A stretch of DNA of 64,000 bases from Candidatus Methylacidiphilales bacterium. GTDB taxonomy: Bacteria > Verrucomicrobiota > Verrucomicrobiia > Methylacidiphilales > UBA1321. The notes under the pieces are model-generated. The model was not told the DNA's origin, searched no databases, and was given only the letters and a program-made list of their open reading frames with translations. Positions 1 to 57,962 of the stretch are shown one piece after another (within the stretch, counting starts at the first letter, position 1; each line of letters starts with the position of its first letter). The DNA lies in NCBI GenBank assembly GCA_035948935.1, contig DASZIP010000022.1, positions 4,541 to 68,540 on the forward strand. The letters run 5' to 3'. The translations under genes and the position numbers were made by a program.

Positions 1-762
1 AATCCAGAGGACGTAGCTGGCGAACGTCTGGTTGTGCCAGGTGGCGAGAAAAGGGAGGACGGTCCAGCCGTGATCGACCTGATACTGCACGACGTCGGAG
101 AGGCGCAGGTTGCCCATGACGAGGAAGATGGGGATGACGGAGAGGCCCATGGAGACTTCGTAGGAGATCATTTGCGCGCTGGAGCGGATGCCGCCGAGGA
201 AGGGGTACTTGGAGTTGGAGGACCAGCCGGCCAGGACGATGCCGTAGACGCTGAGCGAGGCGATGGCGAAAACCAGGAGGACGCCGATGCCGACGTCGGC
301 GATGACGCCGGGCGATTTCATCGTGTAGTTGAAAAAGGGGAGGGTGATGTCGTGCGTGCTGGAAAACGGAATGACGCAGATGGTGAGGAGCGCCGGGACC
401 ATGGCCATGGCGGGGGCCATCCAGAAATAGAGCTTGTTGACGTGGGCGGGGGTGAATTCCTCCTTGAGCATGAACTTGAGCGCGTCGGCGAGCGGCTGGC
501 CGAGGCCCCACCAGGTCCACTTCGGCATGGTGAAGAGGCCGAGGATGTTGACGCCGCCGAGCGGAATGCCGACGCGGTTCGGGCCGATGCGGTCCTGGAT
601 CGCGGCGCTGATCCGGCGCTCGGCCATGACGGTGTAGGAGACGAGGCCGAGGATGACGTTGACCAGGACGAAGATTTTGATGAGCGAAACGAAAACGTCG
701 GGCACCCAAAGCGGGATGCTGGCGGGCAGGTCGGCGAAGAGGAGGGGAGGGGAATTAGACAT
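1..762 (-). CDS. nuoH: NADH-quinone oxidoreductase subunit H, partial (C-terminus runs off the window)
   Basis: Hand translation of the minus strand from ATG at 760-762 gives MSNSPPLLFADLP...YTVMAERRISAAIQDRIGPNRVG...SSNSKYPFLGGIRSSAQMISYEVSMG, typical NuoH motifs. It is absent from the ORF track because no stop lies in the window. It is last in a co-oriented nuoB-G series. Confidence 0.9.
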   Translation of the reverse strand, partial: MSNSPPLLFADLPASIPLWVPDVFVSLIKIFVLVNVILGLVSYTVMAERRISAAIQDRIGPNRVGIPLGGVNILGLFTMPKWTWWGLGQPLADALKFMLKEEFTPAHVNKLYFWMAPAMAMVPALLTICVIPFSSTHDITLPFFNYTMKSPGVIADVGIGVLLVFAIASLSVYGIVLAGWSSNSKYPFLGGIRSSAQMISYEVSMGLSVIPIFLVMGNLRLSDVVQYQVDHGWTVLPFLATWHNQTFASYVLWI

Positions 763-1077
763 GAGGAACATGAAGGACATGAGGATGGTTAAGGCAAGGC
801 TTGCCCCAATTTTCTTTCACAACGAGGGCGCACGAAGCGGGCAAAACGCGGAGCGATGATGAAACAGGCTGTAGAAAACAATGTGAGGATCAAAACGTAT
901 ACAAGAAGAAGTTGTCCTTGTTCTGAGTTTTCTATATGGGTCACATGAGCCTCATGGAGCGAATAAAGCACTGCCGCTGCCACAGCGGCAAAATTAAGTC
1001 CGAAGATGGGAAAGACGATCAGGGTGACTAACTCAAAACAGTCTGCCTTTTTCATGTGCTTCATGTTCCTCATGTCT
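757..1077. repeat. Inverted-repeat bracket (ACATGA-word family) around the 94-aa ORF
   Basis: 757-785 AGACATGAGGAACATGAAGGACATGAGGA matches the reverse complement of 1053-1077, AGACATGAGGAACATGAAGCACATG (24/25 by hand). The arms overlap the nuoH start (760-762), the small-ORF start (1071-1073) and the nuoG stop (1076-1078). Confidence 0.85.
789..1073 (-). CDS. hypothetical small membrane protein (94 aa, two hydrophobic helices)
   Basis: Track ORF MRNMKHMKKADCFELVTLIVFPIFGLNFAAVAAAVLYSL... fills the visibly AT-rich nuoG|nuoH spacer. Its start codon lies inside an inverted-repeat arm. I recognise no family. Confidence 0.4.
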   Translation of the reverse strand: MRNMKHMKKADCFELVTLIVFPIFGLNFAAVAAAVLYSLHEAHVTHIENSEQGQLLLVYVLILTLFSTACFIIAPRFARFVRPRCERKLGQALP

Positions 1078-2785
1078 AAACCGCAACTTGTGCTGATTGG
1101 CCAAGTTTCAAGTCGATGCCGAGGTCGCCGATTTTGCTGAGACTGAGACCGGCGAAGGCGGGGCTGGCTTCGGCCATGGCCTTGAAGACTTCCTCGATGG
1201 TGTGGATGCCGTTGCCGCCGCCGAGCGCCGCTTTGAGCTGGAGGAGAATCTGCCAGTCGTCCATGGCCTGGCCGGGGGGAGGGATCGCCTTGTTGAGGCG
1301 CTGGAGCCGTCCCGTGCCGTTGATCATCGAGCCCCGCTTTTCAGCGAAGCTGGCGCCGGGCAGGACGTAATCGGCGAGTTTCGAGGTGGGGCAGGGGAGG
1401 ATCGATTGGACGGCGAGCACTTTCACCTTTTGCAAGGTGGCCAGGGGCCAGCCGGCGTCGCCCATCAGATTTTCATGGAGGACGAAGAGCGACTGGATGC
1501 GGCCCGTTTCGATGCCGTGCCGGATTTGAGCGAGGGTTTTGCCCTGGTCGGAAAGCCCGAAAATTTCGAGGCCGTTGGTGTTGGGGTTGAGGTCGGCGCT
1601 GCGAAGGATGCCGTCGGCCTTGCCGAGACGGGGGACGATGTCGGTGAGGACCGCTTCGCCGCCGAGGAGCTGGCGGATTTCGCCGAGGAGAAAAGCTTCT
1701 TCGTTGGTGAGGCGGCCCGAGGCGACGATGGCGATCTGGTTGGGTTGAAATTCGCGCAATTGCGAGGCGAGGCGGGGGATGATTTCGCTCCAGGGCGTCG
1801 CAAGTTTGCCGTGGCCGACCCTGGCGACTGGTTCGGTGAACCGTTCGGGACTGTGGATATAATGGAAGCCGAGCCGGCCCTGGTCGCACATCCATTCCGA
1901 GTTGACCGCCTCGTTGCCGCGGGGGGTCTGGCGATAAACGAGTCCTTCGCGGCTGCCGACGATCGTGTTGCAGCCGGTGGCGCAGCCGGTGCAGATGCTT
2001 TTGGTTTCCTTGAGGAACCAGACACGCATCTGAAACCGGAAATCCTTGCTGGTGAGGGCGCCGACGGGGCAGATGTCGACGGTGTTGAGCGAGTAATTAT
2101 TGTCGAGCCGCTTGCCGGGATGGACGGCGAGGGTGGTGTGGCTGCCGCGGTCGATGAAGCCGAGAACATCGTCGTCGACCATTTCCTTCGAGAAACGGAT
2201 GCAGCGCGAGCACATGATGCAGCGTTCGTCGTCGAGGACGATCCGCTCGCCGATGTCGACCCGCTTCGGTTTCTTCACCTTCTCGTCGGTGAATCGGCTC
2301 CCCTCGTGGCCGTACTGGACGGAGTATTCCTGGAGCTTGCATTCGCCGGCCTGGTCGCAGATGGGGCAGTCGAGCGGGTGGTTGATGAGGAGAAATTCCA
2401 TGACGCCCTTGCGGCACTCGTCGACGAGGGGCGATTCGGTGCGGATGCCCATGCCTTCGGCGACGAGCGTGGCGCAGCCGATCTGCGGGCGGGGCATCCA
2501 GGAAATTTCGGGTTTGCCGTCGACGGCGAGGACGGGTTTGCGCTGGGCGTCGAGCTTGGGCATGCCGAGTTCGATCAGGCACATGCGGCAGTTGCCGGAG
2601 ATGGAGAGCTTGGGGTGGTAGCAGTAGTGCGGGACGAATTTCGCGGCGCGGCGGGCGGCTTCAACGGCGTTGAGGCCCTTGGGAAATTTCATCCAGACGC
2701 CGTCGACCTGCACGTTGAGGAGCGGGGCGTCGGCGGGCGTGTGGTCGTGGTCGAACGGATTTTTCATAAGCTCAGGATGACCCAT
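1076..2785 (-). CDS. nuoG: NADH-quinone oxidoreductase subunit G
   Basis: 569-aa ORF with N-terminal 2Fe-2S/4Fe-4S cysteine clusters (CYHPKLSISGNCRMCLIE, HPLDCPICDQAGECKLQ, CIMCSRCIRF) and a molybdopterin-like C-terminal half. An alternative ATG start lies at 2765-2767 (MKNPF...). Confidence 0.92.
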   Translation of the reverse strand: MGHPELMKNPFDHDHTPADAPLLNVQVDGVWMKFPKGLNAVEAARRAAKFVPHYCYHPKLSISGNCRMCLIELGMPKLDAQRKPVLAVDGKPEISWMPRPQIGCATLVAEGMGIRTESPLVDECRKGVMEFLLINHPLDCPICDQAGECKLQEYSVQYGHEGSRFTDEKVKKPKRVDIGERIVLDDERCIMCSRCIRFSKEMVDDDVLGFIDRGSHTTLAVHPGKRLDNNYSLNTVDICPVGALTSKDFRFQMRVWFLKETKSICTGCATGCNTIVGSREGLVYRQTPRGNEAVNSEWMCDQGRLGFHYIHSPERFTEPVARVGHGKLATPWSEIIPRLASQLREFQPNQIAIVASGRLTNEEAFLLGEIRQLLGGEAVLTDIVPRLGKADGILRSADLNPNTNGLEIFGLSDQGKTLAQIRHGIETGRIQSLFVLHENLMGDAGWPLATLQKVKVLAVQSILPCPTSKLADYVLPGASFAEKRGSMINGTGRLQRLNKAIPPPGQAMDDWQILLQLKAALGGGNGIHTIEEVFKAMAEASPAFAGLSLSKIGDLGIDLKLGQSAQVAV

Positions 2786-3058: not shown

Positions 3059-4444
3059 TTAGGCGTGCTCCAGTTTCGTTTCGGGCGCGGAGGCCGGTTT
3101 TTTGGAGACGGTCGAGCCGTTGCCGAGGGCGCGGCTTTCAAATTCGTCCCTGAATTTTTCGACGAAACTCTGCACCGGCCATGCGCAGGCTTCGCCGAAG
3201 GCGCAGATGGTCCTGCCCGCGATGTTGTCGGCGACGTTGGTAAGCAGGGTGACGTCGTCGGGATGGCCGCGACCGGCGGAGAGGCGGCCGGTGACTTTCT
3301 TCATCCAGAGCGAGCCTTCGCGGCAGGGCGTGCACTGGCCGCACGATTCGTGGGCGTAGAACGTGGCGATGTTGGCCAGGCATTCGACCATGTCGCGGGT
3401 TTCGTCCATGACGATGACGCCGCCGCTGCCGGCCATCGAGCCGGCCGCGGCGAGGGTGTCGAAATCGAGCGGGATGTCCTCCAGGCCGAGATCCTTTTCC
3501 TCGATCGTGCCGTCGGGTTTCTTCGTCTTGATTTTGTAGCGGTCGCCGGCCTTCATCACCTTGGCCGAGGAGCCGCCGGGGATGAGCGCCTTGAGTTTGC
3601 GGCCGCCCTTGATGCCGCCGCAGACATCGTTGAGGAGCTGGCCGATGGTGAGCGCTCCGACTTCAAATTCGTAGTAGCCCGGTTTTTCGACATCGCCGCT
3701 GACGCAGAGGAGCCGCGTGCCGGTGTTGTTGGGCCTGCCGAGCTTCGCATAGGCCGCACCGCCCATCGCGACGATGTGCTTGATGTTGCACAGCGTCTCG
3801 ACGTTGTTGACGATGGTGGGGCACATGTAGAGGCCGAGGACGGCGGGGAAGTAGGGGGGCTTGATGCGCGGGTAGGGGCGCTTGCCTTCGAGCGATTCGA
3901 TGAGGCCCGTTTCCTCGCCGCAGATGTAGGCGCCGGCGCCGCGATGGACGTAAATTTCAAGGTCGAAGGCGGAGCCGCAGATTTTTTTGCCGAGGAAGTT
4001 TTTCGCCTTCGCCTCGGCGATGGCCTTTTCGAGGATTTTCGCGCCGAGGGTGAATTCGCCGCGGATATAGATGTAGGCGAGGTGGACGTTGTTGGCGTAG
4101 CAGGCGATGATCATGCCCTCGATCATCTGGTGCGGGTCCTTGTAGATGATCTGCTTGTCCTTGAAGGTGCCGGGCTCCGATTCGTCGGCGTTGCAGATGA
4201 GGTAGACGGGCTTGGTGTTTTTGGCGGGATCGATGAAGCCCCACTTGGTTCCGCAGGGAAATCCCGCGCCGCCGCGTCCGCGCAGGCCGGAGGCCTTGAC
4301 CTCGGCGACGATGTCGGGGCCGCGCATGGTGAGGGCTTTCTTGAGCTCCTTGTAACCGCCGTGGCGGAGGTAGCAATCGATGTCGATGGTGTACCCGGGC
4401 TGGTCGATGTTTTTGAAGATGAGTCTGTTTTCAGCGATGGGCAT
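3059..4444 (-). CDS. nuoF: NADH-quinone oxidoreductase subunit F
   Basis: MPIAENRLIFKNIDQPGYT...GLRGRGGAGFPCGTKW (FMN/NADH site)...ESCGQCTPCREG (4Fe-4S). The track ORF begins at 4465. The internal ATG at 4442-4444 fits homologue length better. Confidence 0.95.
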   Translation of the reverse strand: MPIAENRLIFKNIDQPGYTIDIDCYLRHGGYKELKKALTMRGPDIVAEVKASGLRGRGGAGFPCGTKWGFIDPAKNTKPVYLICNADESEPGTFKDKQIIYKDPHQMIEGMIIACYANNVHLAYIYIRGEFTLGAKILEKAIAEAKAKNFLGKKICGSAFDLEIYVHRGAGAYICGEETGLIESLEGKRPYPRIKPPYFPAVLGLYMCPTIVNNVETLCNIKHIVAMGGAAYAKLGRPNNTGTRLLCVSGDVEKPGYYEFEVGALTIGQLLNDVCGGIKGGRKLKALIPGGSSAKVMKAGDRYKIKTKKPDGTIEEKDLGLEDIPLDFDTLAAAGSMAGSGGVIVMDETRDMVECLANIATFYAHESCGQCTPCREGSLWMKKVTGRLSAGRGHPDDVTLLTNVADNIAGRTICAFGEACAWPVQSFVEKFRDEFESRALGNGSTVSKKPASAPETKLEHA

Positions 4445-4460: not shown

Positions 4461-4976
4461 ACCAAATTACCAAATTTACTAAATTACCAAATTATTTAAG
4501 AAATAACCTCGAAGTTTAAGTGTGGAGGTTGGGCGGTTCTTGTTTTTTCTGGTAGTGAAGCGTTTTAGTTCGAAATTCCATGCTTGTGGCGCCGAAATTA
4601 ATTAAAAGCCCTTCCTCTATTTTCGTGACAGCCAGATAATTGATGAGTTGGGCTGCGTGGGCCGATGTCAAAGTTTCCACGGCTTTGAGTTCAACGATTA
4701 ACTTTTTTTCGATGATTATATCCGCCTGAAAAACTCCGACCTCGGTTCCCTCGTACATCACCGAAAGGATCGGGTGGCATTTAAAAGAGATATTTGCTTT
4801 GCGCAACTCGATAACCAAGGCGTTCCTGTACACGGTCTCAACAAACCCGCAGCCGAGTGTGCGATGAACTTTCATGGCTAGGCCGACAATCTGTTGTGCC
4901 AGCAAGTCGTGCGGTTGTTGCGTGGCAAATACCCTATTTTTCATTTGGTAATTTGGTTAATTTGGAAATTTGGTTA
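4461..4976. repeat. Inverted-repeat bracket (CCAAATT-word family) around GxxExxY gene 1
   Basis: 4461-4495 ACCAAATTACCAAATTTACTAAATTACCAAATTAT matches the reverse complement of 4943-4976, TAACCAAATTTCCAAATTAACCAAATTACCAAAT (29/32 over the aligned core, by hand). The outer edges touch the nuoF start (4442-4444) and the nuoE stop (4974-4976). A third, solo copy of the word family lies at 62437-62479. Confidence 0.8.
4516..4944 (-). CDS. GxxExxY family protein (PD-(D/E)XK nuclease-fold, function unknown)
   Basis: 142 aa with the signature GFVETVY, followed by ...DIIIEKKLIVELKAV...LINYL...GLLINFG. This is the typical TIGR04256/PDDEXK_3 pattern. It is a paralogue of the genes at 7546-7956 and 9125-9559. 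Confidence 0.85.
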   Translation of the reverse strand: MKNRVFATQQPHDLLAQQIVGLAMKVHRTLGCGFVETVYRNALVIELRKANISFKCHPILSVMYEGTEVGVFQADIIIEKKLIVELKAVETLTSAHAAQLINYLAVTKIEEGLLINFGATSMEFRTKTLHYQKKQEPPNLHT

Positions 4977-5561
4977 TGCAGTGTATTTCAAAAGAAGCTC
5001 GTCGGCGCGGGAGCGGGTGACGTTTTCGTAGAAGTCGTCGTTGATCATGATGACGGGCGCGGTGCCGCAGGCGGCGAGGCATTCGACGAACTCGACCGAG
5101 TATTTGCCGTCGGGGCTGAGGGCGAGGCCGTGCGGGTCCGGTTCGGCGGTCTTGCATTTTTCGCGGAAGTAATCGCAGAGCGCGTAGCCGCCGCCGAGGG
5201 CGCACGAGAGCGTGCGGCAGACTTTGATCTGGATTTTGCCCGCCGGATGCTGCCGGAACATCGGGTAGAAGGTGACGAGTTCGAGGATGTTGATCGGTTG
5301 CAGGCCGAGTTTGGCGGCGATCCATTCGATGCCTTCGGGCGAGATGTAGCCTAAGGTCTCCTGCCAGAGATGGAGCAGCGGCAGCGACGCGCTCCGTTTC
5401 GAGACGGGGTAATGGGTGATCAGTTCATCGGCCTGAGCTTCGAAGCCGTTGGGCAGCGCGGGCGTGGGATGATGAGGCTCGACCGCGCCGGGATAGACCG
5501 CCTCGGGCGGGATCGTTTGCGTGGCGGGATCGACGACGGGGCTGAGGCTTTTGGAGGTCAT
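4974..5561 (-). CDS. nuoE: NADH-quinone oxidoreductase subunit E
   Basis: MTSKSLSP...VSKRSASLPLLHLWQETLGYISPEGIEWIAAKLGL...IQIKVCRTLSCALGG...VECLAACGTAPVIMIND (2Fe-2S thioredoxin-like fold). The start is the internal ATG at 5559-5561. It overlaps the stop of the upstream lipoprotein gene by 3 nt (5559-5561 versus 5558-5560). Confidence 0.9.
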   Translation of the reverse strand: MTSKSLSPVVDPATQTIPPEAVYPGAVEPHHPTPALPNGFEAQADELITHYPVSKRSASLPLLHLWQETLGYISPEGIEWIAAKLGLQPINILELVTFYPMFRQHPAGKIQIKVCRTLSCALGGGYALCDYFREKCKTAEPDPHGLALSPDGKYSVEFVECLAACGTAPVIMINDDFYENVTRSRADELLLKYTA

Positions 5562-5827
5562 GATTTGGCTCCGGAAACGAATTCGGCTTTGAAGACGGTA
5601 CCATTGAGGAAGATGACGCGGCCTTCGCCGCCCCATCCGGGATAGTGATCGACCTCGCCGCTGATGGTCTGATCGGCGGTTTGGGATTGTTCAATGCGGG
5701 CAGGGCGGCCGAGAATGGCTTCAACCTGGTCCTGGCTCATGGCGGGTTTGATCTGCGCGATTTTATCGGGGGTGACGGAGGAGGTGCAGGCGGCCAGCGC
5801 GCAAGCGCTTCCTAATAGGGTTGTCAT
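5558..5827 (-). CDS. small lipoprotein, BamE/SmpA_OmlA-like (89 aa)
   Basis: MTTLLGSACALAACTSSVTPDKIAQIKPAMSQDQVEAILGRP...VIFLNGTVFKAEF has a lipobox (LAAC) and the K-x-GM-x(4)-V-x(2)-ILG-x-P pattern of SmpA_OmlA-type lipoproteins. The 5' part of track ORF 5558-5983 is rejected as non-coding. Confidence 0.6.
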   Translation of the reverse strand: MTTLLGSACALAACTSSVTPDKIAQIKPAMSQDQVEAILGRPARIEQSQTADQTISGEVDHYPGWGGEGRVIFLNGTVFKAEFVSGAKS

Positions 5828-5920
5828 CCTGAGCTTGTCGAAGGATCTCTTGCCATTTGTCCATGACAAGCCGCTCCGGGCAGAATAGTTAGAGGTCCCT
5901 CGACAGGCTCGGGATGACGA
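5822..5920. repeat. Miniature inverted-repeat element of the GTCATCCTGAGC family
   Basis: 5822-5846 TGTCATCCTGAGCTTGTCGAAGGAT pairs with 5896-5920 TCCCTCGACAGGCTCGGGATGACGA. The arms belong to the same word family as those around the GIY-YIG remnant at 24452-24744. A solo arm lies at 2768-2783. Confidence 0.75.
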
Positions 5921-5979
5921 TCTTTTATTAAAATCGCTTTCGCGAGCCGTTGCCATGTGCGCAGATGCCATCTGAGAGA

Positions 5980-6249
5980 TCATTTGAAATCCCCCTGCGT
6001 GGCGATCACCTTGTCGTCGAGGAAGGTGATTTTGACGTCGGATGTGTCGGTGTGATAGGTATAGGTCGTGCCGGTAATACCGAGTGCTCCGCCGGTTTGC
6101 GAGCTGGTCGGGTCGCCGAGAATCTCTTTCACTTCCACGGTCGTCATCCCGTTGTGGATTTTTTGGAGATTGTCCTCGGTGAGCCTGGAGCAGGCGGTGA
6201 CCAGGAGAAGGGCGGCAATGGCAAGGAGCGTTGTGTGGATGGTTTTCAT
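5980..6249 (-). CDS. small lipoprotein, BamE/SmpA_OmlA-like (89 aa), paralogue of 5558-5827
   Basis: MKTIHTTLLAIAALLLVTACSRLTEDNLQKIHNGMTTVEVKEILGDP...VKITFLDDKVIATQGDFK. This is the 3' end of the otherwise spurious track ORF 5980-7167. It matches its neighbour in length and architecture. Confidence 0.6.
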   Translation of the reverse strand: MKTIHTTLLAIAALLLVTACSRLTEDNLQKIHNGMTTVEVKEILGDPTSSQTGGALGITGTTYTYHTDTSDVKITFLDDKVIATQGDFK

Positions 6250-6254
6250 GATGG

Positions 6255-7505
6255 TTACCGGTCGCATTCTCCCATGACGAAATCGAGGCTGCCGAGAATC
6301 GCGACGACGTCGCTCATCATGTGGCCGGGCAGGAGTTTTCCCAGGATGCTGAGGTTGACGAAGGAGGGCGCGCGGATTTTGAGGCGATAGGGCACGCCGC
6401 CGCCCTTGCTCTGGATGTAGAAGCCGAGTTCGCCCTTCGGGTTTTCGGCGCCGAAGTAGACTTCGCCCACGGGCGCCTGGATGCCCTCGGTGACGAGGAT
6501 GAATTGGTGGATGAGTTCCTCCATTTTGGTGAGGACCTTCTCCTTGTGCGGAAGAAAACCCTTGCCGTCGCCGACGTTGATCGGTCCGCCGGGGAGCGTG
6601 TTGAGCGTCTGCTCGATGATATGGACGCTCTGGCGCAATTCCTCGAGGCGGCAGAGGTAGCGGTCGTAGGCGTCGCCGACGGAGCCGAGCGGCACCGAGA
6701 AGCCGTACTCGGAATAAGTGAGGTAGGGCCGGGCCTTGCGGACGTCGTAGTTGACGCCGCTGCCGCGAAGGTTCGGGCCGGTGAGGCCGAAGTCGATGGC
6801 GTCCTCCTTCGAGATAATGCCGACGCCCTGGTTGCGATCGACGAAAATTTTGTTGCGGGTGAGGAGCGTGTCGAACTCGTCGATCTTGCCCTTGAACTGC
6901 TCGGCAAACGCCTTGCACTGGTCGGTCCAGCCCGGAGGCAGGTCGCGGATCTGGCCGCCGACGCGGGTGTAGCTGGTGGTGAAGCGGGCACCGGTGAGCG
7001 ATTCGATCAGGTTGTAGATTTTTTCGCGCTCGGTGAAGGCGTAGAGGAAAAAGGTCATGGCGCCGGTGTCCATCGCCAACGCGCCCATGCCGAGCAGATG
7101 CGCGGAGATGCGGGCCAGCTCGCAACAGATGACGCGGATGACCTGGCCGCGCGGCGGGACGGTCCACCCCATGAGCTTTTCAACGGCGAGGGCGTAGGCG
7201 ACGTTGTTGGCCAGCGGGGCGAGGTAGTCGAGGCGGTCGGTGTAGGGGACGAACTGGTTGTAGGTCATGTTCTCGGCGATTTTTTCGTCGCCGCGGTGGA
7301 GATAGCCGATGTCGGGCACGGCCTTGGTGACGATTTCGCCGTCGAGTTCGAGCAGGATGCGCAGGACGCCGTGGGTGCTCGGATGGGAGGGTCCCATGTT
7401 GAGGATGAGCTTTTCGCCCAGAGGCCCGGTCTCGGCCTGCGCCTGCTCAAGCTGCCGCGCGGCGCGCGCCACGCTGTCGGGTGTTTCTAGAATGGTCTCA
7501 GGCAT
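6255..7505 (-). CDS. nuoD: NADH-quinone oxidoreductase subunit D
   Basis: MPETILETP...LILNMGPSHPSTHGVLRILLELDGE...YLHRGDEKIAE...GECDR at the C-terminus. The start is the internal ATG at 7503-7505. Confidence 0.95.
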   Translation of the reverse strand: MPETILETPDSVARAARQLEQAQAETGPLGEKLILNMGPSHPSTHGVLRILLELDGEIVTKAVPDIGYLHRGDEKIAENMTYNQFVPYTDRLDYLAPLANNVAYALAVEKLMGWTVPPRGQVIRVICCELARISAHLLGMGALAMDTGAMTFFLYAFTEREKIYNLIESLTGARFTTSYTRVGGQIRDLPPGWTDQCKAFAEQFKGKIDEFDTLLTRNKIFVDRNQGVGIISKEDAIDFGLTGPNLRGSGVNYDVRKARPYLTYSEYGFSVPLGSVGDAYDRYLCRLEELRQSVHIIEQTLNTLPGGPINVGDGKGFLPHKEKVLTKMEELIHQFILVTEGIQAPVGEVYFGAENPKGELGFYIQSKGGGVPYRLKIRAPSFVNLSILGKLLPGHMMSDVVAILGSLDFVMGECDR

Positions 7506-7514
7506 ATGCGAAAA

Positions 7515-8004
7515 AATTTTGACGAAATTAACGGAATGGACGGAATTACTGCTGAAGATTGGGAGGCTCCGGCATTCCGGGATGAAGCCGGGTCTTGGTT
7601 TTAAATTCAAGTTTTCTCGGGCCGAAATTCAGCAGCAGGCCAAGATCGATCTTGGAAATGGCGAGATAATTCACCAACTGTACGGAATGAGCGATGGCCA
7701 ATGAATCAACGGCCTTGGCTTCAACTATCAGACGGTTATCGATGACTAAATCGGCGATATAGCATCCGATTTCCATATTTCGGTAGGTGACCGTAAAGCG
7801 TTTCTGACGTTCATACGGAATGCGGGCCTCTTTCAATTCAACGATGAGGCCGCCAACGTAGAGAGACTCCAAAAGCCCACAACCAAGGTTATTATAAACA
7901 TCCATGGCGAGGCCGATGATTCGTTTGGCCAACTGCTGATCCGTATCGTTCTGCATTTGGAGTCTGTTAATCATTCCGTAAATTCCGTTAATTCCGTCAA
8001 AATT
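7515..8004. repeat. Inverted-repeat bracket (TTTTGACGGAATTAACGG-word family) around GxxExxY gene 2
   Basis: 7515-7549 AATTTTGACGAAATTAACGGAATGGACGGAATTAC matches the reverse complement of 7966-8004, AATTTTGACGGAATTAACGGAATTTACGGAATGATTAAC (29/32 by hand). The edges lie 9 nt from the nuoD start and 4 nt from the nuoC stop (8009-8011). Confidence 0.85.
7546..7956 (-). CDS. GxxExxY family protein (PD-(D/E)XK nuclease-fold)
   Basis: MQNDTDQQLAKRIIGLAMDVYNNLGCGLLESLY...DLVIDNRLIVEAKAV...LVNYL...GLLLNFG with the signature GLLESLY. The start is the internal ATG at 7954-7956. The longer track ORF to 8058 would read through the repeat arm and the nuoC 3' end. Confidence 0.85.
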   Translation of the reverse strand: MQNDTDQQLAKRIIGLAMDVYNNLGCGLLESLYVGGLIVELKEARIPYERQKRFTVTYRNMEIGCYIADLVIDNRLIVEAKAVDSLAIAHSVQLVNYLAISKIDLGLLLNFGPRKLEFKTKTRLHPGMPEPPNLQQ

Positions 8005-8008
8005 CAGT

Positions 8009-8617
8009 TCAGTGTTCGGCGGGGTTGGCGCGGGGTTCGCGGATCGTCGTGGGCGCATCGCCGATGGCCGGCGGCTTGTCGGTGGGCAGGGCGACGTAGG
8101 GTCCGCCTTCCATCGGCGCGCGACGCGAAAATCCTTCTTCGCCCGGCAGGTCGCTCGGCAGGCCTTCGAGGGGAAAATCTTTCTTGAGCGGATGGAACGG
8201 ATAGCCGTCCCACATGAGGATGCGGCGCAGGTCGGGATGGCCCGCGAAGGTGATGCCCATCATGTCGAAAATCTCGCGTTCGTGCCAATCGGCGCCCTGG
8301 AAGACGGGCACGATGGAATCGACGGAGGGGTCGTCCTCGCTGACCTTGAGCTTGACGCGCAGGTGCGCCAGGTTATTCGGGCCGCCGAGCGCGCAGAATT
8401 CGTAGACGACTTCGTAACGGGGCTCGTCGCCGAAATGGTCAACGCTCGTGATGTCGAGGAGGAGGTTGAAGCCGAGTTCGTTTTTGAGATGGGCGGCGGC
8501 GGCTCGGACGATCTCGCGGTCGATCTCGACGACCTGCTCGTCGCGAAATTCCTTCCCTTGCCCGACCTTGCCGGGAAATTGCTTTTGCAGGGAGGCGATG
8601 GCGTCAGCGGCGGGCAT
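8009..8617 (-). CDS. nuoC: NADH-quinone oxidoreductase subunit C
   Basis: 202 aa with ...ITSVDHFGDEPRYEVVYEF...VFQGADWHEREIFDMMGITFAGHPDLRRILM, typical of the NuoC/30-kDa subunit. Confidence 0.95.
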   Translation of the reverse strand: MPAADAIASLQKQFPGKVGQGKEFRDEQVVEIDREIVRAAAAHLKNELGFNLLLDITSVDHFGDEPRYEVVYEFCALGGPNNLAHLRVKLKVSEDDPSVDSIVPVFQGADWHEREIFDMMGITFAGHPDLRRILMWDGYPFHPLKKDFPLEGLPSDLPGEEGFSRRAPMEGGPYVALPTDKPPAIGDAPTTIREPRANPAEH

Positions 8618-8623
8618 GGGAAA

Positions 8624-8666
8624 GAATTTTGACGGGATTAGGGAAGGCAGACGGAATTAACGGAAC
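8624..8666. repeat. TTTTGACGG-word array (left bracket of the nuoB|nuoC insert)
   Basis: GAATTTTGACGGGATTAGGGAAGGCAGACGGAATTAACGGAACG is the same family and orientation as 7515-7549. A weak inverted partner lies at 9566-9580 (reverse complement ...TTTTAACAGGAAAAC). Other copies lie at 10697-10730 and 23271-23296. Confidence 0.7.
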
Positions 8667-9072
8667 GTTGCGGAGGGCGTGCGGCTGCCCAGGTCATAGC
8701 GAGGAAGCCGAGGAAAGGTATGGCCACAGATGGGAGTAATCCTAGCAGCGATGGATTGGTGCTGATTGCGGGCAGTATACTAATTAATCCTGTAGTCATC
8801 TCCCAAGCGGCAATGCTTAGAAGAAGACCTGAGAAAATCCCGAGACAGATTCGGACAACGTTACGCGAAAGATGAAAAGAGCCGAATATCCATGTTGAAA
8901 AGCTAAAAAATATACATATATCCTTCCAACTGCTGTTATAGAATTGGCCTATGTGAGAAGGAAAGCTGCTCAGAAAAACTGTTCCGAAAAGCAATATCAC
9001 AAGACAACCAAAAATCCGTGCAGTCCAAAGCATCACATGATCGAGCATTTGGAGCGCTTTCATGGTGGTCAT
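8638..9072 (-). CDS. hypothetical integral membrane protein (144 aa, about 4 TM)
   Basis: MTTMKALQMLDHVMLWTARIFGCLVILLFGTVFL...LGFLAMTWAAA lies in a visibly AT-rich stretch. The start is the ATG at 9070-9072, because the longer track ORF would overlap the next gene. I recognise no family. Confidence 0.45.
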   Translation of the reverse strand: MTTMKALQMLDHVMLWTARIFGCLVILLFGTVFLSSFPSHIGQFYNSSWKDICIFFSFSTWIFGSFHLSRNVVRICLGIFSGLLLSIAAWEMTTGLISILPAISTNPSLLGLLPSVAIPFLGFLAMTWAAARPPQRSVNSVCLP

Positions 9073-9124
9073 GCTTGTGGGAGGGTGCAGGCAGATTTTA
9101 ACAGGAAGACATGAAGGGAAGGAA

Positions 9125-9559
9125 TCAAGCTTCATGAAGGCGGAGGTCCGGATCGATGAGGGGCCGGTTGCGGTATTTGCGCTTAATTTGGAGCGGCGCT
9201 GTGCCAAAGTTGAGAATGAGGCCGACATCGAGACCGGATGCCTTGAGATAATTGACCGCCTGTACCTCCGCGCTAAGGGGCAGAAGTTCGAGAGCTTTTA
9301 ATTCCAAAAGCAGCCGCCCTTCGATGATGAGATCGGCGGTAAAATTGCCCACGACCCGGCCATGATAGGAAACGGTCAACGGAGCTTCGCTGACAAAATT
9401 CACCCCCCCTTCGGCCAGCTCAATTTCCAACGCGCGGTGGTAGATCGATTCGACAAAACCGGTGCCAAGCTCCGTATGAACCTTGATGGCCAGGCCAATC
9501 ACCTTGGAACTCAGCGGATCGTCCTCCCCGTGATTCCCATTTCGGTTCATGTATTTCAT
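9125..9559 (-). CDS. GxxExxY family protein (PD-(D/E)XK nuclease-fold)
   Basis: 144 aa with the signature GFVESIY, then ...DLIIEGRLLLELKAL...AVNYL...GLILNFG. This is the third paralogue within the nuo operon. Confidence 0.85.
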   Translation of the reverse strand: MKYMNRNGNHGEDDPLSSKVIGLAIKVHTELGTGFVESIYHRALEIELAEGGVNFVSEAPLTVSYHGRVVGNFTADLIIEGRLLLELKALELLPLSAEVQAVNYLKASGLDVGLILNFGTAPLQIKRKYRNRPLIDPDLRLHEA

Positions 9560-9581
9560 GTTTTCCTGTTAAAAAGGTTCT

Positions 9582-20911: not shown

Positions 20912-20934
20912 GAGAGGCTCCTTTCTTTCAAAGA

Positions 20935-21012
20935 GGTAGCCGTCGCACTCCGTGCGACGGTTCGCGGCGTCCATCCATGGAAGACACCGTCGCACGGAGT
21001 GCGACGGCTACC
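20935..21012. repeat. Perfect 26-nt inverted repeat, each arm itself a hairpin
   Basis: GGTAGCCGTCGCACTCCGTGCGACGG (20935-20960) is the exact reverse complement of 20987-21012, with a 26-nt spacer between them. Each arm contains CCGTCGCAC-nnn-GTGCGACGG. The element lies between the tldD stop and the pmbA start. Confidence 0.9.
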
Positions 21013-21020
21013 TAAAAGCA

Positions 21021-23156: not shown

Positions 23157-23170
23157 GAGCTACAGAATTT

Positions 23171-23253
23171 AGACATGAGAAACATGAATGACATGAAGGG
23201 AAAATCTTCTTTTTCTCAGGTCTGTTTTCATGTCCTTCATGTTTCTCATGTCT
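23171..23253. repeat. Near-perfect long hairpin of the ACATGA-word family (no cargo)
   Basis: Left arm 23171-23198 AGACATGAGAAACATGAATGACATGAAG pairs with 23226-23253 TTTCATGTCCTTCATGTTTCTCATGTCT (26/28 by hand). The loop is 27 nt. It is the same family as the 757-1077 bracket. A partial AGACATGAGC overlaps the tadA start at 23151-23160, and a TTTTGACAGG word array lies at 23271-23296. Confidence 0.9.
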
Positions 23254-23301
23254 AAAAATCAGCCTGCCTTCCAATCCTGTTAATCCTGTCAAAATCAGCG
23301 G

Positions 23302-56614: not shown

Positions 56615-56762
56615 TTTTGGAGAGTAGGATTCCGGCCTGAGCCTGATTTGGATGGGGCTTTTCCGGTTTGGCTTAAATGGCTTTCGTGTCCTCTATTTTT
56701 AGCCCATCTTGCGCATCGAGGAGATTTAGCGGGGTGGAAAGCGATCCGTGGCAGGCGTGGTT

Positions 56763-57942
56763 TCGCACAGAGGACCGAAGAGAAGGAAGGCAGAGGAAAG
56801 GCAGAGTGATTTTTATGCGGAGAAGCTCTGGCTATTTGGCTTCACGATTGCTAAAAAGATGCCTGTCCCCTATTCTCTATTCTACCTCCGGTCATTTGAC
56901 TCGTGCGGCCCGTACCGAAGAGGTAGCCTGCAGTAGGCCTCTTATAGGCAAGCAATTCCCATGAGCGCGCCAACTGACCGCATTCCTACGTCTCGCTACC
57001 TATATTATCTCGTTCGCACTTCGATTATTTTATTCGCCGGTCTATTTTTTGGGATCGTGATTTTGGTAGCGGTGGGAATCACGAGTGATTTTCTCCTCGA
57101 CCGTCGCTACGACGAAGCGCGCGCCAGGCTTGATCCCAAATTGAGAGATGCAGGCTTTACTCCGTCCGTCACGAATGAAGCGAACAGTTTAACTGAACTT
57201 TCGTCGAAGTCCCCGGATGGCGCCTGGGCCATGACAGCTCAATCCGTGTCGGGTCGCGGCTGGAACTGGGGCATCCGCAACAATAAAACGGGGAAGGTCT
57301 ACTTTCAGGATGAGAAGATTCAGTCCAATCGTGCCTTTCCGGACGGGTGCTCGGCGTTGTGGAGCCCAGACAGCCGGTATGTCGCGGTGGCGACGGCGTG
57401 GGGAACAGATACGGACTACGTCAGCGTCATCAACCTGTCCGGAGTGGATCCCACCTTCACGGCTTTTTCCGGAGATGGTCCTGATTATTACGTTTACCCG
57501 CTCAAGGATATTTTGCTGAAACCGGCTGATGCCTCGATTGCCGGAGAATGGATGGAGCAACGCACTGAGGCCCTGAAATGGGAAAATCCAACCGATCTAA
57601 ATTTGGTGGCCTATCTCATCATTCGCCTGGGCGATTTCAGCAAGCCCGAGCGCGCAGCCGCCGCTCACCTGACCCTGCGGTTTTCGGGCAACGCTTTCAC
57701 GGTGCTTGCCAGGCACGATGAGTTTTACGAGGAACTTCCCGTGACTGGCTCGCCATGATTGGAAATTAAAAGCGAAAATGGAGCTGAGGAAAAAGAAGGA
57801 AAAGGGGACAGGCATCTTTTCTTGGTTACAAATGCAACATGGGAACGAGGGAGGCAAATATATGGGGTCAGGATAGAGTCTGACCCTCCCTAAAAATCAT
57901 CCTGCTTGCCCTCTGCCTCCCACCTCTTCAGTCCTCTGTGCG
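56763..57942. repeat. Long imperfect inverted repeats bracketing an orphan gene
   Basis: Outer arms: 56763-56816 TCGCACAGAGGACCGAAGAGAAGGAAGGCAGAGGAAAGGCAGAGTGATTTTTAT and the reverse complement of 57890-57942, CGCACAGAGGACTGAAGAGGTGGGAGGCAGAGGGCAAGCAGGATGATTTTTAG. Inner arms: 56852-56872 TAAAAAGATGCCTGTCCCCTA and 57800-57820 AAAAGGGGACAGGCATCTTTT. Confidence 0.8.
56961..57758 (+). CDS. hypothetical membrane-anchored protein (265 aa)
   Basis: N-terminal TM (LVRTSIILFAGLFFGIVILVAVGI), then a soluble domain. I recognise no family. The GC content is visibly lower than in the neighbours. Confidence 0.5.
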   Translation: MSAPTDRIPTSRYLYYLVRTSIILFAGLFFGIVILVAVGITSDFLLDRRYDEARARLDPKLRDAGFTPSVTNEANSLTELSSKSPDGAWAMTAQSVSGRGWNWGIRNNKTGKVYFQDEKIQSNRAFPDGCSALWSPDSRYVAVATAWGTDTDYVSVINLSGVDPTFTAFSGDGPDYYVYPLKDILLKPADASIAGEWMEQRTEALKWENPTDLNLVAYLIIRLGDFSKPERAAAAHLTLRFSGNAFTVLARHDEFYEELPVTGSP

Positions 57943-57962
57943 AAATAATCAGGGAATCAGGG

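What the first reader, a model, noticed from the sequence alone, without database searches (positions are those of the whole stretch)
4461..9581. Three GxxExxY (PD-(D/E)XK-fold) paralogues sit in three different junctions of the complex I operon, each inside an inverted-repeat bracket
Seen in the sequence:
- CDS 4516-4944, 7546-7956 and 9125-9559 are co-oriented with nuo. They carry the G-x-x-E-x-x-Y signature (GFVETVY, GLLESLY, GFVESIY) and a shared ...ELKA...NYL...GLL(I/L)NFG core.
- They occupy exactly the nuoE|nuoF, nuoC|nuoD and nuoB|nuoC spacers.
- Each insert is bracketed by inverted arrays of short AT-rich words. 4461-4495 matches the reverse complement of 4943-4976 (CCAAATT words, 29/32). 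7515-7549 matches the reverse complement of 7966-8004 (TTTTGACGGAATTAACGG words, 29/32). 8624-8666 has a weak partner at 9566-9580.
- Bracket edges lie within 0-18 nt of the flanking nuo start or stop codons, closest at the nuoE stop, nuoC stop and nuoD start.
- The inserts are visibly AT-richer than nuo.

Inference:
- These look like free-standing, homing-nuclease-like selfish cassettes that colonise spacers of an essential, highly transcribed operon. T4-type seg/mob genes between essential phage genes behave similarly.
- To my knowledge the GxxExxY family has no assigned function, so a mobility role would be new.
Basis: partly seen in the sequence, partly recalled or inferred. Interest (0 to 1): 0.8.

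Follow-up and report, generated by a model that had tools for sequence, protein, structure and literature searches.

The report
Nuclease gene cassettes bracketed by repeats
Three small nuclease genes wedged between the genes of the respiratory complex I operon are each a self-contained unit of about 500 bases closed by inverted repeats built from short repeated words, and the same design recurs across this large uncharacterised gene family in several bacterial phyla, which points to an unrecognised kind of selfish insert resembling the intervening sequences of ribosomal RNA.

Summary
G2 most likely starts at ATG 7974. The true partner of the G3 5' arm is 9096-9115 (19/20), not 8624-8666.

All three proteins are TIGR04256/PF13366 members. 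They keep an intact E..D..ExK..QxxxY site and a confidently modelled Cas4/RecB-like fold.

The inverted-repeat bracket is not local chance. 77 of 88 GxxExxY genes sampled in Verrucomicrobiota, Cyanobacteria and Bacteroidota have one, scoring 15 or more against a null maximum of 12. Words differ between elements but match between the two arms of one element.

Close relatives (NuoD 89-93%) show empty sites, presence or absence of G3, and different GxxExxY lineages at the same junction. Most other Verrucomicrobiota nuo operons have none. Elsewhere the genes sit in unrelated operons (fab, liu, V-ATPase).

The same bracket also encloses four-helix-bundle "23S rRNA IVS protein" genes and small membrane ORFs, and it occurs empty.

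Best reading: selfish cassettes like rRNA intervening sequences. The arms loop them out of the operon transcript, and the nuclease probably drives copying. Neither mechanism is demonstrated. "Selfish cassette" is supported; "homing like T4 seg/mob" is untested and the weaker analogy. I found no published description.

The parts
4461..4974 (-). Cassette 1 (nuoE|nuoF), whole unit of 514 nt from outer arm end to outer arm end
   Evidence: Inverted repeat 4461-4492/4943-4974, 29/32. The RNA minimum-energy fold closes with this stem.
4943..4974 (-). Cassette 1, 5' arm. CCAAATT words x4, period 8-9. It begins on the last base of the nuoE stop and ends on the AT of the G1 ATG.
4516..4944 (-). G1, GxxExxY protein, 142 aa
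   Evidence: TIGR04256 3e-39 and PF13366 1e-37. GC 0.464.
4461..4492 (-). Cassette 1, 3' arm. It ends 16 nt before the nuoF ATG (4444-4442).
7515..8004 (-). Cassette 2 (nuoC|nuoD), whole unit of 490 nt
   Evidence: Inverted repeat 7515-7546/7973-8004, 29/32. The RNA fold closes with this stem, z = -7.4.
7973..8004 (-). Cassette 2, 5' arm. ACGGAATT words x3, period 9. It starts 4 nt after the nuoC stop and ends on the AT of ATG 7974.
7546..7974 (-). G2, GxxExxY protein, 142 aa (start revised from 7956 to 7974)
   Evidence: TIGR04256 9e-37. Homologues at 92-94% identity are 142 aa and start MINR. AF2 model pLDDT 89.6. dN/dS 0.10 against L081.
7515..7546 (-). Cassette 2, 3' arm. It overlaps the G2 stop codon and ends 9 nt before the nuoD ATG (7505-7503).
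9096..9574 (-). Cassette 3 (nuoB|nuoC), whole unit of 479 nt. It is present in the window and in L098, and absent in L001, L081, L083 and L002.
   Evidence: Inverted repeat 9096-9115/9555-9574, 19/20. Filled site compared with empty sites.
9555..9574 (-). Cassette 3, 5' arm (TTTTAACAGGAAAACATGAA). It contains the G3 ATG and starts 7 nt after the nuoB stop.
9125..9559 (-). G3, GxxExxY protein, 144 aa
   Evidence: TIGR04256 1e-34. An 84% orthologue sits at the same junction in L098.
9096..9115 (-). Cassette 3, 3' arm (TTCATGTCTTCCTGTTAAAA)
8638..9072 (-). Second inserted ORF in the nuoB|nuoC spacer. Predicted membrane protein with no family hit, GC 0.462. It is present in L001, L081 and L083, and absent in L098 and L002.
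8624..8666 (-). Orphan 3'-type arm (TTCCGTTAATTCCGTC ... CCCGTCAAAATTC) directly upstream of the nuoC ATG. It is complementary to the G2 5' arm on the far side of nuoC.
   Evidence: 8650-8665 pairs with 7983-7998, 16/16. The same arrangement occurs in L001, L081 and L083 with each genome's own word type.
755..1079 (-). A fourth bracketed cassette, just after nuoG. A 94-aa membrane ORF (789-1073) sits between ACATGA-word arms 1052-1079 and 755-782. The 5' arm supplies the nuoG stop codon.

Best explanation
Each insert is a self-contained selfish cassette of about 480-515 bp. It consists of a promoterless GxxExxY nuclease gene enclosed by terminal inverted repeats made of tandem 8-9-nt words, and it sits in an intercistronic spacer of the nuo operon.

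Shown:
- The unit, meaning ORF plus matched arms, is the normal form of this gene family.
- It is gained, lost and replaced at operon junctions between close relatives.
- The nuclease active site is conserved.

Inferred:
1. The cassette is transcribed as part of the operon mRNA.
2. The two arms pair into a 20-32-bp stem that loops the cassette out. This brings the upstream stop codon and the downstream start codon back to within 10-40 nt of each other and buries the cassette's own start codon.
3. The insertion is therefore tolerated in an essential operon. This is the way ORF-bearing intervening sequences are tolerated in 23S rRNA, where RNase III cuts the equivalent stem.
4. The RecB/Cas4-like nuclease acts on DNA to promote copying of the cassette. 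It could cut an empty or arm-bearing site, with repair from a filled copy, the arms or flanks supplying homology. This would explain both spread and replacement of one lineage by another at the same junction.
For: Family and active site:
- TIGR04256/PF13366 membership.
- Invariant Y39, D75, E85, K87, Q99, Y103, and near-invariant E36.
- AF2 model with pLDDT 89.6 and pTM 0.81.
- Best structural matches are Cas4 SSO0001, lambda exonuclease, MGME1 and Hjc.

The bracket is family-wide:
- 12 of 12 genes in the window plus genome loci have it.
- 77 of 88 genes with usable flanks score 15 or more, against a null maximum of 12 in 600 samples.
- Examples include Nostoc (46-nt arms) and Bacteroides and Bernardetia.

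The two arms vary together:
- In 66 distinct elements, arms average 29.6 nt and are 91.7% complementary.
- Own-arm score averages 22, against 7.4 for arms of other elements.
- An element's own 3' arm is the best partner of its 5' arm in 52 of 66.

Mobility or turnover:
- L002 is empty at all three junctions, and other junctions are occupied in L008 and L031.
- G3 is in the window and L098 only, while L001, L081 and L083 have a 12-20-nt spacer there.
- L001_CD is 39% identical to G2 although NuoD is 89% identical.
- Insert GC is 0.46-0.54 against 0.62-0.64 in nuo.

Unrelated host operons, co-oriented and tightly packed:
- liu, fabD|fabG, radA and ade, and V-ATPase.

Same architecture with other cargo:
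- A four-helix-bundle IVS protein in nuoG|nuoH of L008 and in V-ATPase B|D.
- Membrane and BamE-like ORFs.
- Empty hairpins.

RNA folding and the IVS precedent:
- The RNA minimum-energy folds of all three units close with the arm stem.
- The Coxiella IVS is 428-444 nt with a 28-bp terminal stem, carries an ORF and is cut by RNase III (PMC4990558).

Selection:
- G2 dN/dS is 0.10.
Against: - No direct evidence of transcription, RNase III cleavage, nuclease activity or movement.
- Mismatches in the arms are not enriched for G-U-compatible pairs on the sense strand (29, against 46 A-C). RNA-level selection on the stem is therefore not demonstrated. DNA-level homogenisation of the arms would give the same picture.
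- The tandem-word build of the arms is not explained by a simple stem requirement.
- C|D and E|F occupancy persists across at least four species, so part of the pattern is vertical inheritance.
- Co-orientation with neighbours was only about 70% under my crude ORF calling. It was 6 of 6 in annotated records.
- Some distant members lack a clear inverted repeat: Prevotella, and Fusobacteria, which has direct repeats instead.
Confidence: 0.55

Rival explanations
1. A DNA-level terminal-inverted-repeat transposon. The arms are transposon ends bound by the encoded GxxExxY protein, which acts as the transposase or excisase. Empty hairpins and brackets with other cargo are non-autonomous (MITE-like) derivatives.
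For: - Matched terminal inverted repeats built from repeated short words, which look like arrays of protein-binding sites.
- Empty hairpins with the same word type lie near filled elements: L154, L160, L134 and window 23168-23256.
- The same arm type encloses different cargo: window G3 and the L001 BamE-like ORF.
- There is no sense-strand G-U bias.
Against: - No target-site duplication of 4 bp or more beyond chance in 66 elements.
- From established knowledge, PD-(D/E)XK nucleases alone are not known to carry out strand transfer. TnsA needs TnsB.
- The order of variant words and linkers is mirrored between the arms. Base pairing or copying predicts this; independent binding sites do not.
- Elements sit almost exactly between a stop and a start codon.
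Confidence: 0.15
2. A plain free-standing homing endonuclease gene. The nuclease cuts the empty junction and the gene is copied in through flanking homology. The inverted repeats are incidental, or only dampen expression.
For: - Empty and filled alleles at identical junctions.
- An intact nuclease site.
- From established knowledge, PD-(D/E)XK homing endonucleases exist (I-Ssp6803I).
- Location between essential genes.
Against: - The bracket is present in about 88% of members across phyla and is shared with non-nuclease cargo, so it is not incidental.
- Host junctions are highly diverse, which argues against one conserved target.
- No similarity to known homing-endonuclease structures appeared among the top Foldseek matches.
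Confidence: 0.12
3. A host-beneficial gene rather than a parasite. It could be a stress-, repair- or defence-related nuclease whose translation is gated by the long-range stem, or whose mRNA hairpins serve to process or stabilise the operon transcript.
For: - Purifying selection.
- Persistence at C|D and E|F over several species.
- The family is very large, with 16,763 clusters at E <= 1e-10.
Against: - No PADLOC or PHROGs match.
- Patchy presence even among close relatives.
- About 70 of 80 Verrucomicrobiota nuo operons lack it.
- Foreign base composition.
- No consistent functional partner genes.
Confidence: 0.1
4. Lineage-specific accessory subunits or assembly factors of complex I.
For: All three GxxExxY genes of the window lie in the nuo operon.
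Against: - The same family sits in fab, liu, V-ATPase, radA and other operons.
- It has a nuclease fold and active site.
- It is absent from most nuo operons.
Confidence: 0.02

Closest known systems
ORF-bearing intervening sequences (IVS) of 23S rRNA, for example Coxiella burnetii and Leptospira, which encode the S23p / four-helix-bundle protein (PF05635, TIGR02436)
   Same: - A unit of about 430-510 nt made of a small ORF and terminal inverted repeats forming a stem of about 20-32 bp.
- It sits inside an essential, highly transcribed unit and is tolerated there.
- Distribution is sporadic and base composition is foreign.
- In this dataset the IVS protein family itself sits in nuo and V-ATPase operon spacers inside the same kind of word-array bracket.
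   Different: - The host is an mRNA intercistronic spacer, not an rRNA helix.
- The cargo is a PD-(D/E)XK nuclease.
- The arms are built from tandem 8-9-nt words.
- RNase III excision is not shown here.
Correia/NEMIS elements of Neisseria and other MITE-like hairpin repeats (recalled from memory, not tested here)
   Same: - Short elements with terminal inverted repeats inserted in intergenic regions and co-transcribed.
- Their stems are reported as RNase III substrates.
- The empty word-array hairpins seen here look like this (L006 and L014, window 23168-23256).
   Different: - Correia elements carry no ORF and have a TA target duplication.
- Here the commonest form carries a nuclease gene, and no duplication of 4 bp or more was found.
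REP/REPIN sequences with their RAYT gene (from memory)
   Same: A single gene flanked by inverted copies of a short repeat that also occurs as stand-alone hairpins.
   Different: - RAYT is a Y1 (HUH) transposase, not a PD-(D/E)XK nuclease.
- There is one RAYT per REP family per genome. Here there are several cassettes per genome, each with its own word type.
Free-standing homing endonuclease genes (T4 seg/mob) and the PD-(D/E)XK homing endonuclease I-Ssp6803I (from memory)
   Same: - A small nuclease gene lodged between essential genes.
- Presence/absence polymorphism at a fixed site.
   Different: - seg/mob are GIY-YIG or HNH genes.
- None of these has terminal inverted repeats.
- No target cleavage has been tested.
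- No structural match to a homing endonuclease appeared among the top hits.
Cas4 / RecB / lambda-exonuclease nuclease domains
   Same: Core fold and the E..D..ExK..QxxxY motif set.
   Different: - Only about 125-145 aa.
- No Fe-S cysteines and no partner domains.
- TM-score only about 0.5.

Membership tests
TIGR04256 GxxExxY / PF13366 PDDEXK_3 | Score above the curated HMM cut-off | tested here: met
   119-134 bits against a cut-off of 35 (NCBIfam), and 116-129 bits against 22 (Pfam).
TIGR04256 GxxExxY / PF13366 PDDEXK_3 | G-x-x-E-x-x-Y motif | tested here: met
   GFVETVY, GLLESLY and GFVESIY.
PD-(D/E)XK nuclease superfamily | Alpha-beta-beta-beta-alpha-beta core with D ... (D/E)xK | tested here: met
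   The AF2 model shows H-H-E-E-E-H-E-E. D75, E85 and K87 are invariant in 45 sequences. Foldseek matches are Cas4, lambda exonuclease and Hjc.
PD-(D/E)XK nuclease superfamily | Nuclease activity | not testable with these tools
   Needs biochemistry.
Homing endonuclease gene | Filled and empty alleles of the same site in related genomes | tested here: met
   G3 is in the window and L098 but not in L001, L081 or L083. L002 is empty at all three junctions.
Homing endonuclease gene | The encoded enzyme cleaves the empty allele | not testable with these tools
   No assay possible.
Homing endonuclease gene | Relation to a known homing-endonuclease family | tested here: inconclusive
   The fold class contains I-Ssp6803I (from memory). 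However, no homing endonuclease is among the top 50 Foldseek matches, and the sequence search found no significant PDB match.
rRNA intervening sequence (IVS) | Terminal inverted repeats forming a stem of 20 bp or more that encloses the insert | tested here: met
   Compare the 28-bp stem of the Coxiella IVS.
rRNA intervening sequence (IVS) | Inserted in an rRNA helix | tested here: not met
   The inserts lie in nuo intercistronic spacers. The window has no rRNA.
rRNA intervening sequence (IVS) | Excised from the transcript by RNase III | not testable with these tools
TIR transposon / MITE | Terminal inverted repeats | tested here: met
TIR transposon / MITE | Target-site duplication | tested here: not met
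   No direct repeat of 4 bp or more across the ends beyond control in 66 elements. A 2-3-bp duplication cannot be excluded.
TIR transposon / MITE | A recognised transposase | tested here: not met
   The only Pfam/NCBIfam hit is PDDEXK_3/GxxExxY.
REP/RAYT | Y1 (HUH) transposase flanked by REPs | tested here: not met
   The protein is PD-(D/E)XK.
Anti-phage defence systems (PADLOC) | Match to a defence protein model | tested here: not met
   0 families.

The most novel reading that the evidence does not exclude
GxxExxY nuclease cassettes and four-helix-bundle "IVS protein" cassettes together form one widespread class of bacterial intervening elements. There are tens of thousands of protein clusters across many phyla. 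These elements colonise both rRNA helices and the spacers of essential operons, using word-array terminal repeats to loop themselves out of the transcript. On this reading the GxxExxY protein is the DNA nuclease that moves or exchanges them, which would be the long-missing mobility function for IVS-type elements and their empty hairpin derivatives.
Probability: 0.3. Interest if true: 0.9.

Novelty: new variant of a known kind. Interest (0 to 1): 0.78.

Why it matters
- GxxExxY/PDDEXK_3 is a very large family: 38,448 clusters at 50% identity with E <= 1e-3, and 16,763 with E <= 1e-10.
- The one survey I found that covers it lists its function as "Unknown" (PMC3424549). I found no paper describing its genomic architecture.
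- The gene almost always comes as a unit with matched word-array arms, sits in operon spacers, turns over between close relatives, and shares this design with the 23S rRNA IVS protein family. Together these give the family a concrete, testable biology.
- The work also connects rRNA intervening sequences, whose origin and mobility have been open questions since about 1990, with a candidate mobility enzyme.
- It shows that essential operons such as nuo, fab and V-ATPase can be colonised without being broken.
- Practically, annotators could recognise these units, and the arms could serve as portable insulators for inserting genes into operons.

Tried and rejected
- Standard covariation analysis (MAFFT plus RNAalifold) on arm mini-hairpins of 26 ACGGAAT-type elements. 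The repetitive words make the alignment register ambiguous, and only 10 pairs were recovered. It was not informative. I used a comparison of own arms against other elements' arms instead.
- Sense-strand G-U tolerance as a test of RNA against DNA pairing. The result was 29 against 46, inconclusive and if anything the wrong way for sense RNA.
- Target-site duplications: none of 4 bp or more.
- Remnants of GxxExxY coding sequence in the loops of empty hairpins: none. "Empty means deleted cassette" is therefore unsupported. The L006 and L014 empties are a MITE-like family with their own conserved loop.
- Rfam: no family matches the arms.
- Sigma-70 promoters and intrinsic terminators within the inserts: no excess.
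- PDB sequence search: no solved relative.
- PADLOC and PHROGs: no hits.
- Complex I accessory subunit idea: rejected on distribution.
- Neighbour orientation from my crude ORF caller is noisy. I rely more on the annotated records and called genes.

Full report
**What is in the window**

The nuo operon runs on the - strand in this order:
- nuoB 9582-~10100
- G3 9125-9559
- an unknown membrane ORF 8638-9072
- nuoC 8009-8617
- G2 7546-7974
- nuoD 6255-7505
- two BamE-like lipoprotein ORFs 5980-6258 and 5558-5983
- nuoE 4974-~5560
- G1 4516-4944
- nuoF 3059-4444
- nuoG 1076-2785

G1, G2 and G3 hit TIGR04256 "GxxExxY protein" (E 3e-39, 9e-37, 1e-34) and PF13366 PDDEXK_3. A profile built from the three finds no other member in the 64-kb window. 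An identical protein is named "GxxExxY protein [Candidatus Methylacidiphilales bacterium]" in NCBI, so the window comes from a Verrucomicrobiota metagenome-assembled genome.

**Checking the brackets**

- The third bracket was mis-paired. The 5' arm at 9555-9574 pairs with 9096-9115, right after the G3 stop (19/20).
- 8624-8666 is a separate, orphan 3'-type arm in front of nuoC.
- The word patterns are well above shuffled expectation.
- With a match +1 / mismatch -2 score, 600 random placements of the same geometry gave a mean of 8.1 and a maximum of 12. The three elements score 23, 23 and 17.
- G2 most likely begins at ATG 7974. Many homologues at 92-94% identity are 142 aa and begin MINR.
- With that start, in all three cassettes the 5' arm begins 0-7 nt after the upstream nuo stop and ends at or over the cassette's own ATG. 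The 3' arms of G1 and G2 end 16 and 9 nt before the next nuo ATG.
- GC is 0.46, 0.48 and 0.54 for G1, G2 and G3, against 0.62-0.64 for the nuo genes.

**The protein**

In an alignment of 45 homologues, Y39, D75, E85, K87, Q99 and Y103 are invariant and E36 is nearly so. That is the E ... D ... ExK ... QxxxY constellation of RecB/Cas4/lambda-exonuclease-type PD-(D/E)XK nucleases.

The AlphaFold model of G2 is confident (pLDDT 89.6, pTM 0.81) and has the expected alpha-alpha-beta-beta-beta-alpha-beta-beta order. Foldseek against the PDB gives Cas4 SSO0001 first (E 3e-5, TM about 0.52), then lambda exonuclease, LHK-Exo, MGME1 and Hjc. No solved structure is detectable by sequence.

G2 and its L081 orthologue have dN/dS 0.10. 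There is no match in PADLOC or PHROGs. The family has 38,448 clusters at 50% identity with E <= 1e-3 and 16,763 with E <= 1e-10. Many of the best-scoring representatives listed are tandem two-domain proteins.

**Relatives: empty sites and turnover**

Eighty Verrucomicrobiota nuo loci were fetched with NuoD and annotated. Most have no GxxExxY gene in the operon.

| Locus | NuoD identity to window | GxxExxY occupancy |
|---|---|---|
| L002 | 77% | empty at B\|C, C\|D and E\|F (spacers of 45-100 nt without words) |
| L001 | 89% | C\|D and E\|F occupied, B\|C not |
| L005, L023 | 90%, 73% | E\|F |
| L008 | 73% | D\|E |
| L031 | 77% | F\|G |
| L081, L083, L098 | 91-93% | further close relatives |

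Details from the close relatives:
- G2 has same-junction relatives of 83% (L081), 81% (L098) and 61% (L083).
- G1 has same-junction relatives of 63% in L081 and L083. The E|F occupants of L098 and L001 are only 52% and 51% identical to G1.
- L001's C|D occupant is 39% identical to G2. It is closer to G3 and to L023's E|F gene.
- G3 is present at B|C in the window and in L098 (84%). In L001, L081 and L083 the nuoB stop is followed after 12-20 nt by the membrane ORF. The window has 6 nt, then the 479-nt element, then 32 nt.
- The membrane ORF is itself variable. It is absent in L098 and L002.

So there are empty sites, positional polymorphism and lineage replacement, alongside persistence of C|D and E|F occupancy within this clade.

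**The bracket is a property of the family**

- All 12 GxxExxY genes in the window and the genome loci are flanked by inverted repeats made of tandem 7-10-nt words.
- After adding 72 metagenome loci and loci from exact-protein look-ups, 77 of 88 genes with usable flanks score 15 or more. Two apparent failures (L097, L098 C|D) do have arms on inspection.
- Word types differ widely: CCAAATT, ACGGAATT, TAGGATTAA, GACATGAA, ACGAATGT, CACAGATT, CGCTAATCTT, CACGAAGG, GACGCAGAG, AACGCAGAGG and others. Within one element the two arms match.
- For 66 distinct elements, arms average 29.6 nt at 91.7% complementarity.
  - The median unit length is 503 nt.
  - Own-arm score averages 22, against 7.4 for arms of other elements.
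  - An element's own 3' arm is the best partner of its 5' arm in 52 of 66.
- The order of variant words and linkers is mirrored between the arms. L081 E|F is an example at 37/38.
- The feature is seen in Nostoc (46-nt arms), Bacteroides finegoldii and Bernardetia.
- It is weaker in Novilysobacter, Treponema and Sphingomonas.
- It is not seen in Prevotella, and the Fusobacteria plasmid has direct repeats instead.
- Some database proteins carry N- or C-terminal extensions such as LTELTEL and NSVNSV. These are translations of the arms.

**Where the cassettes sit**

In annotated records the gene is co-oriented with both neighbours and packed between them in 6 of 6 cases. Examples are fabD|fabG in Sphingomonas, radA|FAD-protein in Bacteroides and ade|manC in Bernardetia. 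It also sits in a liu operon and in a V-ATPase operon.

A crude ORF caller on the metagenome loci gave about 70% co-orientation. The 5' arm mostly began -7 to +20 nt from the upstream stop. Target-site duplications of 4 bp or more are not found beyond chance.

**The bracket is not exclusive to GxxExxY**

The same kind of word-array inverted repeat encloses several other cargos:
- A TIGR02436 four-helix-bundle protein, the "23S rRNA IVS protein" family (E 6e-22), between nuoG and nuoH in L008.
- Members of that family between V-ATPase B and D genes, with GTTAT-type words. L178 carries both a four-helix-bundle cassette and a GxxExxY cassette (28/29 arms) in one operon.
- A 94-aa membrane ORF right after nuoG in the window (755-1079).
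- A BamE-like ORF in L001, with arms of the same type as window G3.

It also occurs empty, as 140-180-nt hairpins in co-directional spacers:
- Window 23168-23256.
- D|E and E|F of L006 and L014, which form a MITE-like family with a conserved loop and no trace of GxxExxY coding sequence.
- L154, L160 and L134, next to GxxExxY cassettes with the same words.

An orphan 3'-type arm precedes nuoC in the window, L001, L081 and L083. In each genome it matches that genome's own C|D arms; in L001 it is 30/31 identical to the C|D 3' arm.

**How it most likely works**

The published model closest in anatomy is the ORF-bearing IVS of 23S rRNA. The Coxiella element is 428-444 nt, is closed by a 28-bp terminal stem and encodes an S23p/four-helix-bundle ORF. 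[quoted passage not shown] The authors call it a selfish element of unknown origin and mobility (PMC4990558).

The nuo cassettes have the same size and design. The RNA minimum-energy folds of all three close with the arm stem (z = -7.4, -3.3, -1.9).

I therefore infer three things:
- The cassettes are co-transcribed with nuo.
- The stem loops them out. This restores a short effective distance between the upstream stop and the downstream start and masks the cassette's start codon. It may also provide an RNase III site.
- The conserved nuclease acts on DNA to spread or exchange cassettes.

None of these steps is shown. The arm mismatches give no sign of sense-strand G-U tolerance (29 G-U-type against 46 A-C-type). 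DNA-level homogenisation of arms, for instance by repeated cleavage and gene conversion, or protein binding to the words, remains possible. The tandem-word build is unexplained. Rfam has no matching family, and there is no excess of sigma-70 promoters or terminators in the inserts.

**Comparison with known systems, and novelty**

- The proteins are members of TIGR04256/PF13366 and of the PD-(D/E)XK superfamily.
- The elements work like ORF-bearing IVSs but are not IVSs in the strict sense, because they are not in rRNA.
- They resemble MITEs, or REP/RAYT pairs, in having empty derivatives. They lack a target duplication and a known transposase.
- They resemble free-standing homing endonuclease genes in location and polymorphism, but the integral bracket sets them apart.
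- Full-text searches for GxxExxY, PDDEXK_3, PF13366, TIGR04256 and the IVS protein in operons found no description of this architecture. The only functional entry is "Unknown". I cannot exclude a remark in database family descriptions that I could not read.

**Verdict**

The "selfish cassette" reading is supported by comparative evidence. The specific "homing like seg/mob" mechanism is untested and is not the closest analogy. The broader result is worth follow-up: this large uncharacterised family has a family-wide architecture of a cassette closed by word-array inverted repeats, and shares it with IVS-protein genes.

Noticed in passing
window 755-1079 (- strand): A 94-aa predicted membrane ORF (789-1073, GC 0.46) sits immediately after nuoG. 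It is enclosed by 28-nt ACATGA-word arms (1052-1079 and 755-782). The 5' arm supplies the nuoG stop codon. The ORF has no family hit.
   Followed up: partly
window 8638-9072 and 8624-8666 (- strand): An AT-rich membrane ORF lies between G3 and nuoC. It is present in L001, L081 and L083 but absent in L098 and L002. It is followed by an orphan 3'-type arm that can pair with the G2 5' arm across nuoC. The same arrangement occurs in relatives with their own word types.
   Followed up: partly
window 23168-23256 and 23277-23294: An empty word-array hairpin (30-nt ACATGA-word arms, 29-nt loop) lies in the spacer between two co-directional - strand genes. Just upstream of it on the - strand there is an orphan 5'-type arm (TTTTGACAGGATTAACAG).
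   Followed up: partly
window 56761-57945: A 55-nt inverted repeat (56761-56815 / 57891-57945, purine-rich CAGAGG-like words) encloses about 1.07 kb holding a 265-aa ORF of unknown function (56961-57758). A nested 22-nt inverted repeat lies at 56854-56875 / 57799-57820. The unit sits next to a probable methylthioadenosine phosphorylase gene.
   Followed up: no
window 5558-6258 (- strand): Two small BamE-domain lipoprotein ORFs lie between nuoD and nuoE. BamE-like ORFs occupy this junction in about 12 other Verrucomicrobiota nuo operons, so they look like lineage-typical operon members. One L001 copy, however, sits inside a word-array bracket.
   Followed up: partly
L178 2501-3951: One V-type ATPase operon carries both a four-helix-bundle (23S_rRNA_IVP) cassette at the B|D junction and a GxxExxY cassette at the D|I junction.
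   Followed up: yes
one search hit list: Many of the best-scoring family representatives are proteins of about 260-280 aa with two GxxExxY domains in tandem. They are either true fusions or read-through of adjacent cassettes.
   Followed up: no
L165 (Fusobacteria plasmid) 2200-2930: Here the GxxExxY gene is flanked by direct copies of a roughly 50-nt unit (AATCAGTGAAAA...AATCCGTGTACCTA) rather than by an inverted repeat.
   Followed up: no
L039, L045, L055, L051, L064, L079 nuo spacers: Other Verrucomicrobiota nuo junctions hold unrelated inserted genes. These include a conserved roughly 200-aa ORF at E|F, a Dps-like ORF, glyoxalase-like ORFs and a methyltransferase-like ORF. These operons tolerate insertions generally.
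   Followed up: no
window 20934-21013: A 28-nt perfect GC-rich palindrome pair (AGGTAGCCGTCGCACTCCGTGCGACGGT) with a 24-nt loop. It is of a different kind from the word arrays.
   Followed up: no
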